Part shown: positions 23,187 to 31,596 of the stretch, piece by piece
Layout: each line of letters begins with the position of its first letter
Position numbering within the stretch: the stretch's first letter is position 1
Assembly: GCF_009914755.1 (NCBI RefSeq)
Contig: NC_060930.1
Direction: 5' to 3' (one strand)
DNA: 64,000 nt
Origin: the human T2T-CHM13v2.0 reference genome, Homo sapiens
Made by a program: the position numbers and the translations under genes
The notes under the pieces: model-generated
What the model was told of the DNA's origin: nothing
What the model saw: the letters and a program-made list of their open reading frames with translations, nothing else
The model's database searches: none

Positions 23187-25416
23187 CTAACTTTTGAGGA
23201 GAATGGGCTCTGTTTGGCATGATTTGGCTGAGAGAGGCAAAAGCATGCAGCCTCCCACAGGAAACGATGGGAGAAACACCAGCAGCAGATGTAGGCAGAT
23301 GTTTATGGAAAATGGTGCACAACATATTCAGAAGTAAAAATTTCATATTTGTGAATACAAATTTCATTTACCATTATGAAAATAAACATTTCAGTAAATC
23401 ATTTCATAACTAGAGGGATCCCAGAGGCAGGAGTCATCTCACCTTCCAAAATAATAGCAGCCAGCCAGGGTATGGCAGTGGCAGCAATGACACTTCTACC
23501 TCTAGCTGCCAGTCATAGGCATCCTAGCAACCTCTGTCAGGAGAAGAGTGGGAGGGAAAATGTTTTTTTTTCCTCCAAGCATTATGAAACAACTAGGGAG
23601 GCTAGTCTCTGAGGATTTGATCTAAGGCTTGCCCAAATTACTTTCTCTCAGGAACTTTTGCCTTGAACCAATTTTAGGCACCAAACTAGTTCTCTCTTGC
23701 TGGAAGAACGTGATTGTATTGTCTGAAATTGTGCATGCTTCCTTGTAGGATGCCAGTGGAAAACCCCAACCATGCCCTTTCCCACTAAATTATTAGGATT
23801 TCACTTTCCAGTAAATGCAAAAAGAACATGCAAGCATGGCTAAGAGGTTTTTTTCTAATTAAAAAGCTACACTTTTTATCTTAACATTTCTACTTCTGTA
23901 AGCTTTATGTGGGCATGAGACCATACCATTTGTCTTTACATCCCCACAATACCCAGTAATATTTATGTACATAATTGGAGATGAATAATGATTCTCTTAG
24001 ATAAAGAAACTTGTCCACCCACCTCTACCACAAATGAAAATCCTTTTTCTTATAGAACTTTTTGGCCAAGCAAAGGCTCATGATATCTGTAATATCTGTG
24101 ATAGAGAAGCAGTGAGGATAGTTCTTATTCCACAGTCCAGCATGAAATTCTAGAATGATGATTGGCCTTTTCTGTTCACTTTCACTCTCTTGGAGGGAAG
24201 GAGGAATGTGAATAATTGAAAAACGAGTTACAACTCAAACAAAACACATATGAATTTGGCTTTGCTCTGTGGTGAATCCCACAACTCGATAGTGCCCTCC
24301 ACTCTTTTCTGTCTATCCTTAACTCAAACCTCTGTCTAGTTGACCAAGACCCAGCTGGGAGGAGGATCCAGGAAAAGGTTCCAGAGTGGGGATGGGAGAA
24401 GGTGCTGGAATGAAGGACTCAAGAGACGCATATGAAGCTCATTTTGACGCTTTATCACTTTGTATTGTTGAGAAATGCTTGTTCTGTCTTCACGCCTGAG
24501 GTTTCTTCTTGTCAACTTGGATGAATGGACTATAGAATGTACACATTTCCTGCTTGCACTGTGATTGAAAGTCCCATATAAATAAAAATTAGTTGACCTT
24601 TGCATTGTTGCGGTATTATGCCAAATGCAGAAAAGCTTAAGGGTATAATAATAAAAGCTAAAATGGATAAACTAAGTCTGACTTAGAGAATTATCAAAAT
24701 CTCAAAGCATTTCAGGGACAAAAAATGATTTTTAAAAAGTAAACATTTATATACTTTTAACTCTATATTTTATCACTGTTTCCTCCTACAGCTTATTTAA
24801 ATGCACATTCCAGTTATAATAATTTTGAGTAAATCCCCCAGTTGACTTGAATGTGTACAAACTTGCTCCTGGCCATTTGAATCTGATGCAATTCAGCAAA
24901 TTTTGAAATTTGTATTCCAGTTATTCAAGTAAATGAATAGTGTCATTTGATTATTTGACGTGATTTTTTTTTAAAAGCAGTTTTGAAAAACTGCTTCTGG
25001 GTATCAATACTAAAATGAAAACACTGGCTAAAATCATAAAAGCAGGAAAATTAATTTCAGGGCATTTTAAGCCTCCTCTGCTTCCTGGGCTCACAGGGCT
25101 TCAGAAGTGGAGAATCATTCTCTGATGTCACTGTTCTCTGAAAGCTGATCCATTCAAACCCATATGGTGGACATCTTTGAATCACACACTGGTTACATTT
25201 TTCAGTGCCTCAGAAAGCAGAATTTCCCCCCTTTTAATTCTCAAAAGCAAATTTGAATGAACTGTTTTACCCACCTGCAGCTTCCTCTGAGGAATATAAC
25301 TCTTTAATTCAATTCATAATGTCCTCATATTCTACAACCTCCAAATTATCCTAAATTATTAAATCTTAATTATTTGGGTTTAAAATTAAAATAAACAGTT
25401 TTAGTTTTAAATCTAA

Positions 25417-25829
<413 letters not shown>

Positions 25830-25889
25830 AACTTCCCATTTCTTTAATTCTCTACTGCAATCTACATCTTTGCTAATCAATAGAAAGTC

Positions 25890-26322
25890 AACATGGTTCC
25901 ACAGATTTTGGAAATGCAAAAACTTTTGGCTTTTAAAAGCCCCCTTCAAGCAGAAAAATCTATCTGCTGAACAATAAAGACCACATAAGAGAAAATGGAG
26001 TGTGGGCCCTCCCTACTGGTTTATGCCTCACATAGAGGTCCCTGGTGGTAGGGGCCTAGATAGAGAGACAGTGTAATAGAATTGCATTAACACAGTGTCC
26101 AAGAGTGCAGAATCCACAAATGGTTGATGGGCAGGCCTCTCCTGGTCTTTGTCTCCACCCTGTCTGGCTCACAACTCTACATTTCTATGGTTGCTTCGCT
26201 CCAATTAAACTTCAAGCTCAGCTTCCATCCTATGCAAACACCCTTTAATGTTTCTAGATCTCTTTCCTACCTGCACACATCCTTGTTTTGCATCTTTGTC
26301 TTGGAAGGACAAATAGCATGGT
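25890..26322 (+). repeat. Left copy of a 433-bp direct duplication of host DNA flanking the HERV stub
   Basis: Base-by-base comparison with 27916-28349 gives 5 substitutions and a 1-bp C-run indel; ORFs 26124-26330 and 28151-28351 are near-identical. Confidence 0.98.
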
Positions 26323-26694
26323 TCAGATAATGAAGGTTGTGCAGGAGAGGAAGGTTGAGGAAAAGGTGGAGGATCGTCAGATTCAGAAAATTGTGGTAAC
26401 TGTAGGGGCTGTCTCGGGATTGGTATGTCATCAGGACAGCACGTACTAAGGCCCAGTCACCCCAAATAGTTACGGGAACATAATTTCCTGTGGAGACCAG
26501 TTCCCTGAATGTTGTACCAACAAGATCCCATAGTTCTACATCTAAGGTTCCTTTTTCAGGAAACCAAGGACAGTATTTTTCTACTGACCTGAATAGAGTG
26601 AGCATATTTTCCATAGGCACTTAACACCACCCTGTTTTAACAGGAGTTTAATATAGCAGAGATAAGCATGATGCTTACACTCTGCATGATCCAT
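26323..26694 (-). pseudogene. gag: Frameshifted, truncated betaretroviral gag (matrix domain plus proline-rich region)
   Basis: MDHAECKHHAYLCYIKLLLKQGGVK / PMENMLTLFRSVEKYCPWFPEKGTLDVELWDLVG...VPVTIWGDWALVRAVL resembles the HERV-K Gag matrix (YLSFIKILLKRGGVKV...FCPWFPEQGTLD...WNDWAIIKAAL); frameshift near 26620 and probably near 26410 (alternative frame LQLPQFSESDDPPPFPQPSSPAQPS). Confidence 0.92.
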
Positions 26695-26832
26695 AGTTAA
26701 CCCAGACCTTACACAGACTACTGACCACTCGTCGGGGAGTCGAACACGCGTATCTGTGGACCAAGCCGATTGACGTTTCACTGCACGTACCAAAGGGAAT
26801 CGGGTTCCCTCATGCATTTAGGAAAAAAGAAA

Positions 26833-26848
26833 GACCACGTGGGTGCCA
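26833..26848 (-). other. Primer-binding site, degenerate tRNA-Lys type
   Basis: TGGCACCCACGTGGTC two bases after the LTR end; compare the Lys1,2 PBS TGGCGCCCAACGTGGGGC. Confidence 0.75.
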
Positions 26849-26850
26849 GA

Positions 26851-27915
26851 TATCGGGGAACCTGCCCCGATATTCATGTAGGTTCTTTTCTATTTTCCTT
26901 AAGCGTCGGCCGGCTTAAGAAATAAAGGGACAGAGTACAAAAGAGCAATTTTAAAGCTGGGCATCCAGGGGAGACAACACATGTCGGTGGGTTCCATGAT
27001 GCCCCATAAGCTGCAAAACCCACCAAGTTTTTATTAGGGAGTTTCAAAAGGGGAGGAAGTGTGCAAATAGGTGTGGGTCACAGACATCAAGTACTTTACA
27101 AGGTAATAGAATATCACAAGGCAAATGGAGGCAGGGCGAGATCACAGGACCACAGGACCGGGGCAAAATTAAAATTGCTAATGAAGTTTCGGGCACCATA
27201 GTCATTGATAACATCTTATCAGGAGACAGCGTTTTGAGATCAACCGGTCTGACGAAAATTTATTAGGCGGGAATTTCCTCTTCCTAATAAGCCTGGGAGC
27301 GCTATGGGAGACTGGAGTCTATTTCACCCCCGCAGTCTCAACCATAAGAGATGGCCATGCCCAGGGGAGCCAGTTCAGAGACCCACCCCTAGGTGCGCAT
27401 TCTCTTTCTCAGGGATGTTCCTTGCTGAGAAAAAGAATTCAGCGATATTTCTCCCATTTGCTTTTGAAAGAAGAGAAATATGGCTCTGTTCCGCCAGGCT
27501 CACCAGTGGTCAGTTTAAGGTTATCTCTCTTGTTTCCTAAACATTGCTGTTATCCCATTCTTTTTTCAAGGTGCCCAAATTTCATATTGCTCAAACACAC
27601 ATGCTGTACAATTTGTGCAGTTAATGCAATTATTACAGGGTCCTGAGTCGATATACATCCTCCTCAGCTGACAGGATTAAGAGATTAAAGTAAAGACAGG
27701 CATAGGAAATCACAAGGGTATTGATTGGGGAAGTGATAAGTGTCCATGAAATCTTTACAATTTATGTTTAGAGATTGCAGTAAAGACAGGCATAAGAAAT
27801 TATAAAATTATTAATTTGGGGAACTAATAAATGTCCATGAAATCTTCACAATCCATGTTCTTCTGCCATGGCTTCAGCCGGTCCATCCATTTGGGGTCCC
27901 TGACTTCCCGCAACA
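26851..27915 (-). mobile_element. MER11 LTR (subfamily A/B/C not resolved), ~1065 bp
   Basis: MER11-type 5' end; internal 90-bp-period U3 repeat (AGTAAAGACAGGCATA at 27689 and 27779); minus-strand AATAAA at 27030-27035; ends GGGGCAGGTTCCCCGATA. Confidence 0.9.
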
Positions 27916-28349
27916 AACATGGTTCCACAGATTTTGGAAATGCAAAAACTTTTGGCTTTTAAAAGCCCCCCTTCAAGCAGAAAAATCTATCTGCTGAACA
28001 ATAAAGACCACATAAGAGAAAATGGAGTGTGGGCCCTCCCTACTGGTTTATGCCTCACATAGAGGTCCCTGGTGGTAGGGGCCTAGATGGAGAGACAGTG
28101 TAATAGAATTGCATTAACACAGTGTCCAAGAGTGCAGAATCCACAAATGGTTGATGGGCAGGCCTCTCCTGGTCTTTGTCTCTACCCTGTCTGGCTTACA
28201 ACCCTATATTTCTATGGTTGCTTCGCTCCAATTAAACTTCAAGCTCAGCTTCCATCCTATGCAAACACCCTTTAATGTTTCTAGATCTCTTTCCTACCTG
28301 CACACATCCTTGTTTTGCATCTTTGTCTTGGAAGGACAAATAGCATGGT
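27916..28349 (+). repeat. Right copy (434 bp) of the direct duplication, abutting the LTR's terminal TG
   Basis: Begins exactly at the base after the LTR terminus (CAACA|AACATGG); matches 25890-26322. Confidence 0.98.
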
Positions 28350-28592
28350 AGAATTTTTGGACTGAAATTAAGATGTGGTTCTAAAAGTACATAATGTCAC
28401 CATGTACTCATGAGCTTTTGATTCATGCCTCATTCCATCTGTGGGGACAGCCCACTGTTTGCACCAGGCTAATTGCTACATATCCTGTAAGACCTGGTGA
28501 TGCCTCATATGCCCTGTGGAGCCTTTCCAACTCTCCCTTCCTCTGGGCTTCCCACATATCCTGGGCAACTTCCACCATAGCTTTTGATAGAC

Positions 28593-29317
<725 letters not shown>

Positions 29318-31109
29318 TGTATTGTGAATACTCTTAAAAGGCATTTCTCTATTTACAAAACTTAGCAGAATGCCTGGCACATGTCAAGAAACGTTTGTTG
29401 AATGAATAAATAAAGAAGCATCTTCCTGACTCTGATCAGCATCTAATCACTTGCTCCCTTATTTTCCTCCCTACTTGTATCTATTCTTTACCATCCTAAT
29501 ATTAACAGTTTGAACACTTGTCTGTATCTCACACCTAAGTCCTTAATGCTGTTGGGTTTATTCCTAGCCTTCAGAGGTGTCACAGGAGACATCAGTGGTA
29601 TCTGGAGCCACTCTCCAGACACGGGACATCCACACAGAACTTGGGCTCTGTGGTTTCACATCATGGCAATATACTGAGCCAACAGATTCCAATGAGTACA
29701 ACCAGCAAAATCATGGTCCATATGCCCCTTTCCTAGAAGCCAAGCTAGCAACTCAACCTTGAGGCAGCTGAAACTGCTCCTAAGAAGAGCCTCTTGTGGC
29801 TGCTAGTTCTCAAGTAGGTGATTAAAATGAGAGAGGAGGTAGCCTGGTTACTGACCAAGTAAATATCAAAAAAAGGGTTGAAAGTCAGCTCTGCAGAAAA
29901 TTGGGAGCTGCCTCACATTCTGAAGTCATTACTCCAAGAAAGTCCTCTTACATCCAGAGTTTTCTTTCTTCTCAAATTATGGGATACCTACATATAACCA
30001 CTCAGAAAGATCACATTTGTGAGAATAAAACATGATTATACCTCAAAAACATTTCCTTTCAGGATCACTCTGCTCAAGTCTCCTGGGCCCCAGTGAATTC
30101 TGATTGAAGAAGAGCCCTGGAGTAGTTACACATCCATAAAGGCTCTATTTGTTTTTATATGTACTTACCCTCTGCCTGACTCTGCCATTCTTGCTTAAGA
30201 AACATTATGTTGAAATGGAATGATATTTTATGTGAGCGAGGGTGTGGGGTGAGTCCTCTTGTAAAAGGGTGGCCTTGTCTTGATACAAGTAGACTCAGGA
30301 TGACCCAGGCTCTGGATCTTGGTTAGCAAAGTTTGCAGTGGACAGTGTTTGAATCCAGTGTTTGAAGGAATATTTCCTCCTGTAACATGGTTTTGTAATG
30401 GAAAGTCATTTTATTTTCAGGTCCCATTTTGTTTTGTAGGTTTTTTTTTTTTTTTTAATCCCAGCTTAAATAGTAAGTCTAACAATCACAAATTCTTTTC
30501 CATGGATGTTTAAGAGTAGAGTTCTTTTAATGTTCCAATGATACTGAAATACTTTGTACCAGTTTCTTTTGCATTCCCAAGAAGTGTTATAATGCAGACT
30601 GCACGCTTAAAAGAAGGAATGTTCTAAGTTTTAGTCCAAGATGCCCTGAGGTGAGAAATCAAGAACAAGGATCTCGTCTATGACTTGAGATAATAATGAG
30701 GATCCTTCAATAAATTCCTAGGGCTGTCTCTTATAGGGACTCAATCAAGTCAACTCCATATTAAATGTCTGTTGTTGTGCAAGGCATAATATGAGTGCCT
30801 TGAGAGCCATAAAGAACAAAAATCTTTGAAATGTTTCTAACCCTCAGGAGTTTACAGCAAAGTTAGGAACAAAAATTTGAATCACGATCAAGCTTTTAAT
30901 AAATCTAAATAAAAATAAAATATTTCAATAGCAGCTCAAAATAAAAAGAGACAACAGCTTTCACAAGGCTGTCCATGGTTAATTGCCAAGTGAATTCTAC
31001 AAGCAGAAAGTGCCCAGACCTCAAAGAGGGCAGGCCCAGGAAGGCATCTTTCAGGACAGGCAGAATGTAGGTAGGCTGGCAGGAGGCAAAACAAACCCAC
31101 CTGCTTCTT

Positions 31110-31596
<487 letters not shown>

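What the first reader, a model, noticed from the sequence alone, without database searches (positions are those of the whole stretch)
25890..28349. Truncated HML-8/MER11 provirus flanked by a 433-bp host duplication instead of a ~6-bp TSD
Seen: the order is host X (25890-26322), gag fragment, leader, PBS, complete LTR, then host X again (27916-28349). The LTR end joins the first base of X exactly at its terminal TG, as integrase would leave it. The other end breaks in the middle of gag with no second LTR. Known: betaretroviral integrase makes ~6-bp TSDs. Very long TSDs have been reported for a few HERV-K(HML-2) loci, and experimental retroviruses with one defective end give large target duplications. 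Inference: this is either a fossil one-ended integration (integrase joined one end, host repair joined the broken end 433 bp away) or a later template switch between an empty allele and a full provirus that removed pro-pol-env-3'LTR. I do not know of such a case described for HML-8.
Basis: partly seen in the sequence, partly recalled or inferred. Interest (0 to 1): 0.8.

Follow-up and report, generated by a model that had tools for sequence, protein, structure and literature searches.

The report
Truncated HML-8 provirus with 433-bp flanking duplication
An ancient retroviral remnant (one LTR plus the start of gag) sits between two near-identical 433-bp copies of unique human DNA, the signature of an integration in which only one viral end was joined properly; similar cases are already known for a younger HERV-K group.

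Summary
A minus-strand MER11C/HML-8 stub lies between two direct copies of host DNA. The stub is a complete 1065-bp LTR, a PBS-like site, the leader and the first 372 nt of gag. The host copies are X1 (25890-26322) and X2 (27916-28349). They differ by 5 transitions and one 1-bp indel, and occur nowhere else in the genome.

The LTR starts at its normal terminal TG, directly against X2. gag is joined bluntly to X1, with 0 bp microhomology and no filler. Related MER11C copies carry ordinary 6-bp duplications (19 of 29 exact; none longer).

This anatomy matches experimental one-ended (aberrant) integrations. It also matches published HML-2 long-TSD loci, including a truncated provirus with a 111-bp TSD at 6p25.2. 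I rate one-ended integration the best explanation, at about 0.5.

One complication is new. X1 and X2 are 3-4 times more alike (1.16%) than the LTR's age predicts (3.6-4.6%), and 4 of the 5 differences lie within 25 bp. This points to partial gene conversion or, less likely, to a later rearrangement. Primate orthologues would settle it, and I could not reach them.

Published catalogues list this locus as a solitary MER11C LTR. I classify it as a new member of a known kind, of moderate interest.

The parts
25890..26322 (.). X1, left copy of the duplicated unique host DNA (433 bp). It follows the left flank as in an empty site, and its right end is joined to truncated gag.
26323..26694 (-). gag stub: ATG at 26694 and the first 372 nt (matrix, Pfam Gag_p10). 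The N-terminus and the Gag_p10 part lie in different frames, and the first frame ends in a stop at 26583-26581. The stub is broken at 26323 and blunt-joined to X1.
26695..26832 (-). 5' leader between the PBS-like site and the gag start.
   Evidence: homology to leader/gag of HML-8 proviruses over 26323-26860
26833..26848 (-). PBS-like site (TGG...), two bases after the LTR end. The same motif follows the 5' LTRs of proviral copies L051 and L055. The tRNA assignment (Lys) is recalled, not tested.
26851..27915 (-). Complete 5' LTR, 1065 bp, MER11C (published: group G4, cluster c20). It begins with the family's terminal TGTTGCGGG at 27915 and ends ...CCCCGATA at 26851.
   Evidence: PMC12273786 table S3; PMC10194239 supplement
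27677..27859 (-). Tandem repeat of about 91 bp inside U3 of the LTR (80-86% identity between units). Secondary matches show it in other copies too, so it is a family feature.
27916..28349 (.). X2, right copy of the duplicated host DNA (434 bp). Its first base abuts the LTR's terminal TG.
26156..26180 (.). 25-bp patch of X1 (equivalent to 28183-28207 in X2) that holds 4 of the 5 substitutions between the copies.

Best explanation
This is a fossil of an aberrant, one-ended retroviral integration. About 15-30 million years ago, linear DNA of a MER11C-type HERV-K(HML-8) virus entered the germline. Integrase joined the processed U3 end of the 5' LTR to the host top strand between the bases now at 25889 and 25890.

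The other viral end was not joined by integrase. The viral DNA ended or was trimmed 372 nt into gag. Host repair then joined that end to host DNA 433 bp downstream of the first joint. This could happen by priming or copying on nearby host DNA, or by end joining after the second host strand broke there.

Because the two joints were staggered by 433 bp, the stretch between them was copied on both sides of the insert, giving a 433-bp 'TSD'. The result never had pro, pol, env or a 3' LTR. Later, non-allelic gene conversion or unequal exchange between the two copies, which lie only 1.6 kb apart, erased most of their divergence and left a small unconverted patch.

Shown here: the anatomy, the exact LTR terminus, the blunt gag/host joint, the uniqueness of X, the normal 6-bp TSDs of relatives, and the age mismatch. 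Inferred: the order of events, the repair pathway and the gene conversion.
For: (1) The LTR starts at the family's terminal TG, flush against X2. 27 of 29 related LTRs begin TGTT at the same aligned base. This is what integrase processing leaves.

(2) The other end is truncated viral DNA joined straight to host. All 28 HML-8 copies that matched around the break (28 of the 29 loci compared) read on into gag, and 26 of 28 continue TCAG.

(3) The left flank runs into X1 as in an empty site, and X occurs only twice in the genome.

(4) Relatives have ordinary TSDs: an exact 6 bp in 19 of 29, at most 1 mismatch in 24 of 29, and 0 of 29 with a longer flanking repeat. So 433 bp is exceptional for this family.

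(5) Experimental aberrant integrations of HIV and ASLV show one normal end and an often truncated other end. Host DNA is 'most commonly' duplicated, by 'hundreds or thousands of bp' (passages of PMC5041404).

(6) There is a natural precedent in HML-2, including a truncated provirus lacking its 3' LTR with a 111-bp TSD that is shared down to orangutan (PMC5488345).

(7) One event explains every junction.

(8) 4 of the 5 X1/X2 differences fall within 25 bp (simulated P = 0.003 for random placement). That patchiness is expected from partial homogenisation, not from a uniformly young duplicate.
Against: (1) X1 and X2 differ at 5 of 431 non-CpG sites (1.16%). Several measures predict more.
- LTR pairs of the closest sibling proviruses differ at 37 of 1024 (3.61%, 5p13.1) and 19 of 534 (3.56%, 3q22.1, partial) non-CpG sites.
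- This LTR's own CpG-masked terminal branch is 0.023, rank 22 of 34, against 0.018-0.019 for the 5p13.1 LTRs.
- The LTR has lost 19 of 41 family CpG positions.
- If the duplication dates from integration, P(<=5 differences) is 0.002 at an expected 3.6% and 8e-5 at 4.6%. With the most conservative estimate (12 strictly private changes in 1065 bp) it is only 0.08.
The explanation therefore needs gene conversion, which is not shown.

(2) The aberrant joint has 0 bp of microhomology. In the experiments a short homology is 'usually, although not always' present.

(3) Unperturbed wild-type HIV vectors gave 0 of 99 and 0 of 85 aberrant proviruses, so such events are rare.

(4) No pre-integration or orthologous allele was examined.
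Confidence: 0.5

Rival explanations
1. Secondary rearrangement of a normally integrated provirus with a 6-bp AACATG TSD. There are two versions. In the early version, an illegitimate exchange occurred between an empty allele and the filled allele. In the late version, a double template switch occurred during replication: from the left TSD copy to the right one (6-bp microhomology), through X, then back into gag. Either would remove 3' LTR-env-pol-pro-gagC and put a copy of X in their place.
For: At face value, the low X1/X2 divergence (1.16% against 3.6-4.6% expected) dates the duplication to about a quarter to a third of the LTR's age, as a late event would. The 6-bp TSD offers a microhomology for the first switch.
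Against: It needs two non-homologous joints and an exact restoration of the empty-site junction. The gag/X1 joint has 0 bp of microhomology, which is atypical for template switching. A uniformly young duplicate does not predict 4 of 5 differences within 25 bp (P = 0.003). The early version predicts the same high divergence as one-ended integration. A chimpanzee HML-8 catalogue of 76 proviral elements lists only three on chr6 (58.3, 73.9 and 155.8 Mb) and none near the orthologous 6q21. So a human-specific truncation is unlikely; this evidence is weak, because that catalogue has a size floor of about 0.9 kb.
Confidence: 0.13
2. Two-ended integration with a very long TSD (at least 433 bp), as at HML-2 7p21.2 and 21q21.1, followed by an ordinary deletion. 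The deletion would run from inside the left TSD copy through the 3' LTR to gag. The true TSD would then have been longer than what is left of X1.
For: Full proviruses and solo LTRs with TSDs of 206, 250 and 450 bp are reported for HML-2 (Table 2 of PMC5488345). No coincidence of breakpoints is needed. The blunt joint fits a simple deletion.
Against: It needs two rare events instead of one. It gives no explanation for the low X divergence.
Confidence: 0.1
3. Pseudo-TSD. A larger tandem duplication of the region existed first. A normal integration then hit the second copy at the start of X. A later deletion removed everything from the end of X1 to gag.
For: The model was discussed for HML-2 6p25.2 (discussion of PMC5488345). 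The repeat edges would be set by the integration point and by the deletion breakpoint, so no coincidence is needed.
Against: It needs three independent events. It predicts that X1 and X2 are older than the LTR, the opposite of what is seen. No other trace of duplication lies in the flanks: the only flank matches are two Alus at 77-85% identity, and X has just two copies genome-wide.
Confidence: 0.06
4. Assembly artefact, or X being a repeat or a viral sequence.
For: None found.
Against: The copies differ at 5 substitutions and 1 indel. X matches only these two places in the genome. The LTR has the same 1065-bp length in the hg19 and hg38 catalogues.
Confidence: 0.01

Closest known systems
HERV-K(HML-2) 6p25.2 truncated provirus with a 111-bp TSD (Kahyo et al. 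2017, PMC5488345)
   Same: A betaretrovirus-like HERV-K element that lacks its 3' LTR and is flanked by a long direct repeat of host DNA. Its truncation point is shared among apes.
   Different: A different group (HML-2/LTR5 versus HML-8/MER11C) and a younger element. Its repeat is 111 bp against 433 bp here. A pre-integration allele was shown by PCR for 6p25.2; none was examined here.
HML-2 long-TSD loci 7p21.2 (solo LTR, 250 bp), 4q32.1 (provirus, 206 bp), 21q21.1 (provirus, 450 bp)
   Same: Host duplications of hundreds of bp instead of 6 bp. The length here, 433 bp, is near the top of the reported range.
   Different: Those elements have two intact LTR ends or are solo LTRs. Here one end is broken inside gag.
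Experimental aberrant (one-ended) integrations of ASLV and HIV-1 vectors (Hughes laboratory; PMC5041404 and the work it cites)
   Same: One end is joined normally by integrase, the other is often truncated, and the host DNA is duplicated by hundreds to thousands of bp.
   Different: Those arise in cultured cells with a mutated viral end, mutant integrase or inhibitors. They usually show a short homology at the aberrant joint, whereas this joint has 0 bp. This locus is a fixed germline event.
Ordinary MER11C solitary LTR, as this locus is listed in PMC10194239 (supplement) and PMC12273786 (table S3)
   Same: A full-length MER11C LTR of 1065 bp with normal termini.
   Different: 528 bp of PBS, leader and gag remain attached. 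There is no 6-bp TSD pair around the LTR. So it did not arise by LTR-LTR recombination.

Membership tests
HERV-K(HML-8) / HERVK11 with MER11C LTR | LTR homologous over its full length to MER11C copies, with the family termini | tested here: met
   40 scored matches at 90-94% identity over 1-1065; same TGTT start as 27 of 29 copies, and the same ...GATA end. Published label: MER11C, group G4, cluster c20.
HERV-K(HML-8) / HERVK11 with MER11C LTR | Internal sequence homologous to HML-8 leader and gag | tested here: met
   49 matches. The best are the published proviruses 3q22.1 (92%), 19q (89%) and 5p13.1 (88%). Pfam Gag_p10, E = 2e-14.
HERV-K(HML-8) / HERVK11 with MER11C LTR | Complete provirus: two LTRs and gag-pro-pol-env | tested here: not met
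   gag ends at 26323, and the 64-kb window holds no second LTR or further gag. pol and env were not searched for by protein.
HERV-K(HML-8) / HERVK11 with MER11C LTR | Lysine-tRNA primer binding site | not tested
   A PBS-like TGG... motif is present at 26848-26833. Its tRNA match is recalled only.
Long-TSD ERV insertion (Kahyo et al. class) | Direct repeat of host DNA much longer than 6 bp abutting both ends of the ERV sequence | tested here: met
   433/434 bp, flush with the LTR terminus and with the gag break.
Long-TSD ERV insertion (Kahyo et al. class) | Repeat is single-copy in the pre-integration allele | not testable with these tools
   No primate or alternative human alleles were available. 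X is otherwise unique in this genome.
One-ended (aberrant) integration | One viral end normal, as integrase leaves it | tested here: met
One-ended (aberrant) integration | Other end truncated or rearranged, and joined by the host with a large duplication | tested here: met
One-ended (aberrant) integration | Short homology at the aberrant joint (usual, not obligatory) | tested here: not met
   the gag parent reads ...CTGA|TCAG, the host parent reads ...TTCT|ACCA, and the product reads ...CTGA|ACCA. The overlap is 0 bp.
One-ended (aberrant) integration | The structure dates from the integration itself (no full-provirus ancestor) | tested here: inconclusive
   The X1/X2 divergence is 3-4 times lower than the LTR's age predicts. 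That is compatible only with added gene conversion.
Solitary LTR from LTR-LTR recombination | LTR alone, flanked by a 6-bp TSD | tested here: not met
   internal sequence is attached, and there is no 6-bp TSD pair.

The most novel reading that the evidence does not exclude
The 433-bp duplication is much younger than the provirus. It would date to roughly the time of the human-chimpanzee ancestor, more than 10 million years after integration. A replication template switch primed on the 6-bp TSD would have skipped the whole provirus, copied X, and jumped back into gag. That would be an undescribed way of losing most of a provirus that leaves a long pseudo-TSD. It would also mean that some published 'long TSDs' are not integration products at all.
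Probability: 0.1. Interest if true: 0.6.

Novelty: new member of a known kind. Interest (0 to 1): 0.4.

Why it matters
The locus would be a natural germline record that half-site integration followed by host repair also happened to an ancient betaretrovirus-like virus. This process is otherwise known from manipulated HIV and ASLV vectors and from a few HML-2 loci. At 433 bp, its duplication is near the top of the reported range.

There are three practical consequences. First, catalogues that list this locus as a solitary LTR misread its origin. Second, long flanking repeats can recombine and restore an apparently empty site, which weakens presence/absence of ERVs as a homoplasy-free marker. 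Third, such repeats can be homogenised, so flanking-repeat or LTR-pair clocks can mislead; here the repeat looks 3-4 times younger than the LTR.

Tried and rejected

(2) I tried to get primate orthology from the literature.
- Table 1 of PMC10194239, which I read in full, has no 6q21 provirus. Its supplement lists only the LTR, as solitary (I saw 32 of 36 chr6 rows).
- The tables of PMC12273786 give subfamily, group and cluster, plus MPRA rows for the human copy only. No chimpanzee or macaque row names this instance. The stored file is cut, however (S1-S5 only, with S5 partial), so that absence means nothing.

(3) I looked for an ectopic donor for the 25-bp patch of differences. 70-bp queries from each copy matched only X1 and X2.

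(4) I considered late capture of the stub from another genomic provirus. I rejected it because the closest leader/gag copy is 92% identical and the closest LTR 94%.

(5) I considered tandem duplication of the gag-LTR-X unit followed by loss of the first provirus. I rejected it because LTR-LTR recombination would leave a solo LTR left of X1, where there is an Alu and unique DNA.

(6) I counted strictly private substitutions as an age estimate. Taken alone, this does not make the age mismatch significant (P = 0.08).

(7) I fetched the 3' LTR of the 12q21.31 provirus. The stretch (L065) held a plus-strand partial LTR, not the expected one, so I left that pair out of the dating. Of the 3q22.1 3' LTR, only the first 548 positions matched, and only those were used.

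(8) I did not attempt a genome-wide scan of all MER11 loci for long flanking repeats. The search scores only 40 of 2126 candidates per call, so only 29 loci were checked.

(9) A search for LINC02836 found no papers.
Full report
OBSERVATION

The repeat finder and my own alignment confirm two direct copies of host DNA, X1 25890-26322 (433 bp) and X2 27916-28349 (434 bp). They differ by 5 transitions, none at a CpG, and by one 1-bp indel in a C run (1.15%). The bases just outside both ends differ between the copies, so the edges are exact. X matches only these two places in the window's own genome (2 candidates, both scored). The tool warns that very common words are skipped. X is therefore not viral and not a recognisable repeat. 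The six differences speak against an assembly duplicate.

WHAT LIES BETWEEN THE COPIES

The element is on the minus strand. A 1065-bp LTR runs from 27915 to 26851. It aligns end to end with 40 scored MER11 copies at 90-94% identity (2126 first-look candidates, 40 scored). It begins TGTT at the same aligned base as 27 of 29 fetched relatives and ends ...CCCCGATA like them.

Two bases further on lies a PBS-like TGG... motif (26848-26833). The same motif follows the 5' LTRs of two proviral relatives. Its assignment to tRNA-Lys is recalled, not tested.

The leader and gag follow. The gag ATG is at 26694, and gag runs 372 nt to 26323. It matches Pfam Gag_p10 at E = 2e-14, profile positions 24-84 of 85. 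The N-terminus and the matrix core lie in different frames, and the first frame ends in a stop, so the stub is decayed.

A search with 26323-26860 found 49 matches. The best are the published HML-8 proviruses at 3q22.1 (92%), chr19 (89%) and 5p13.1 (88%). No second LTR and no further gag lie in the 64-kb window. The other hits in that call coincide with masked Alu-sized repeats.

JUNCTIONS

At the U3 end, the LTR's terminal TG abuts the first base of X2.

At the other end, all 28 HML-8 copies that matched around the break read on into gag (28 of 29 loci compared; L023 gave no match). 26 of the 28 continue TCAG. Here gag ...CTGA is followed by the reverse complement of X1 (ACCA...). In the undisturbed host, that same X sequence is preceded by ...TTCT. 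The joint is therefore blunt, with 0 bp of microhomology and no filler.

The left flank runs into X1 exactly as an empty site would.

FAMILY CONTROL

Among the 29 related LTR loci, 19 have an exact 6-bp TSD and 24 have at most one mismatch. Of the other five, two are 5' LTRs of proviruses, two are off by one base in my extraction, and one is truncated. None of the 29 has a flanking repeat longer than 6 bp under a suffix/prefix rule at 90% identity or more; this locus scores 434. A 433-bp duplication is therefore exceptional for the family.

PUBLISHED ANNOTATION

The HML-8 census has no 6q21 entry among its 78 proviruses (PMC10194239, Table 1 read in full). Its supplementary list of 504 solitary LTRs contains chr6:105615085-105616149 (-) in hg38. 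That entry is this LTR, because the offset to the hub's T2T coordinates is constant at 1,175,766. The paper does not mention TSDs.

Table S3 of PMC12273786 lists hg19 chr6:106062959-106064024 (-), 1065 bp, as MER11C, group G4, cluster c20. Members of that cluster sit next to this LTR in my tree. Neither paper notes the gag stub or the duplication.

AGE

The closest sibling proviruses (3q22.1, 5p13.1, 12q21.31) are MER11C types. The census reports them as shared with gibbon and dates them at 24.7-28.5 My.

Their LTR pairs differ at 37 of 1024 non-CpG sites (3.61%, 5p13.1) and at 19 of 534 (3.56%, 3q22.1, partial 3' LTR). X1 and X2 differ at 5 of 431 (1.16%).

In a CpG-masked ML tree of 34 LTRs, this LTR's terminal branch is 0.0230 (rank 22 of 34; median 0.0205). 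The two 5p13.1 LTRs, whose branches are purely post-integration, have 0.0191 and 0.0178. With all sites the branch is 0.0305 (rank 12 of 34).

This LTR keeps 18 and has lost 19 of 41 family CpG positions (rank 9 of 34 for CpGs kept). So it has sat in methylated germline DNA about as long as its relatives.

If X had been duplicated at integration, 15.5-19.8 differences would be expected, and 5 are seen. P is 0.002 at 3.6% and 8e-5 at 4.6%. With the most conservative estimate (12 strictly private non-CpG changes in 1065 bp, doubled) the expectation is 9.7 and P is 0.08. The repeat therefore looks 3-4 times too young, with significance that depends on the estimator.

The differences are not spread evenly. 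4 of the 5 fall in 26156-26180 (P = 0.003 by simulation). No third locus could have donated either version of that patch.

MECHANISM

Any model has to explain three things: (i) the exact LTR terminus at X2, (ii) the empty-site junction of the left flank with X1, and (iii) a blunt gag/X1 joint.

One-ended integration explains all three in one event. Integrase joins the 3' OH of the U3 end to the top strand at 25889|25890. The other viral end, broken in gag, is joined by host repair 433 bp downstream. The staggered joints are then filled in, which duplicates X. This geometry is my inference.

This is the pattern described for aberrant HIV and ASLV integrations. There one end is normal and the other is often truncated. 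Host DNA is most commonly duplicated, by hundreds to thousands of bp, with a short junction homology 'usually, although not always' (passages of PMC5041404). Such events are rare for wild-type virus: 0 of 99 and 0 of 85.

Natural counterparts exist in HML-2. Kahyo et al. list 8 LTR5_Hs sites with flanking repeats longer than 10 bp, among 622 sites examined (I read the abstract, the full discussion and Table 2 passages). They include 7p21.2 (250 bp), 21q21.1 (450 bp), 4q32.1 (206 bp) and a truncated provirus lacking its 3' LTR at 6p25.2 (111 bp). The 6p25.2 truncation is shared by human, chimpanzee, gorilla and orangutan.

THE AGE MISMATCH

Under one-ended integration, the mismatch needs homogenisation of X1 and X2. 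That is plausible for 433-bp direct repeats 1.6 kb apart. Gene conversion among LTRs is documented in humans, and its frequency rises as the distance in cis falls (passages of PMC4921805). The patchy distribution of differences is what partial conversion leaves. It is not shown here.

The alternative is that the duplication really is younger. That calls for a late double template switch using the 6-bp TSD. This fits the count of differences. It does not fit their clustering or the blunt second joint, and it requires an exact restoration of the empty-site junction.

A chimpanzee HML-8 catalogue lists three chr6 elements, none near 6q21 (I saw all 10 'chr6' mentions). This is weak evidence that the truncation is not human-specific.

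OTHER RIVALS

A two-ended long-TSD integration followed by a deletion from inside X1 into gag needs no coincidence, but it needs two rare events.

A pre-existing duplication (pseudo-TSD) predicts that X is older than the LTR, the opposite of what is seen.

Late capture of the stub from another provirus is excluded by its 6-8% distance from every other copy.

VERDICT

The best reading is a fossil one-ended integration with later partial homogenisation of the long TSD (about 0.5). The rivals are secondary rearrangement (0.13), long-TSD integration plus deletion (0.10) and pseudo-TSD (0.06); the remainder is unassigned.

It is a new member of a known kind. It is the first such case I could find for HML-8 in the searchable library, with a duplication near the top of the reported range. 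The decisive data are the orthologous loci of other primates, which I could not reach.

Noticed in passing
window 26323 (gag break); loci L004, L006, L017: In the closest intact copies the break falls exactly at the centre of an 8-bp palindrome, CTGA|TCAG. About 1 position in 256 is such a centre by chance. This was noticed after the fact and is unexplained.
   Followed up: no
window 26156-26180 / 28183-28207: Four of the five X1/X2 substitutions (C/T, C/T, T/C, C/T) lie within 25 bp (P = 0.003). No third genomic locus matches either version. This could be an unconverted island or a single clustered mutation.
   Followed up: partly
window 25499-25829: A minus-strand Alu ends about 60 bp left of X1. 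It is bracketed by an imperfect direct repeat of about 15-36 bp (family D7), probably its own TSD. It is not part of the duplication.
   Followed up: no
window 27677-27859: A tandem duplication of about 91 bp in the U3 region of the LTR (80-86% identity between units). The same secondary self-match appears in other MER11C copies, so it is a family trait.
   Followed up: partly
hg38 chr6:105615085-105616149 (= window 26851-27915): Two published catalogues list this locus as a solitary MER11C LTR, although 528 bp of PBS, leader and gag remain attached.
   Followed up: yes
L065 (G000:C12:84079900-84082300): Where I expected the minus-strand 3' LTR of the 12q21.31 provirus, the stretch begins with a plus-strand partial MER11 LTR (positions 426-1065). 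Either my coordinate transfer was off or the locus is rearranged.
   Followed up: no
window 24277-31229: The stub lies in the last intron of the predicted lncRNA LINC02836 and in the same orientation (hub annotation). No paper in the library mentions that gene.
   Followed up: no
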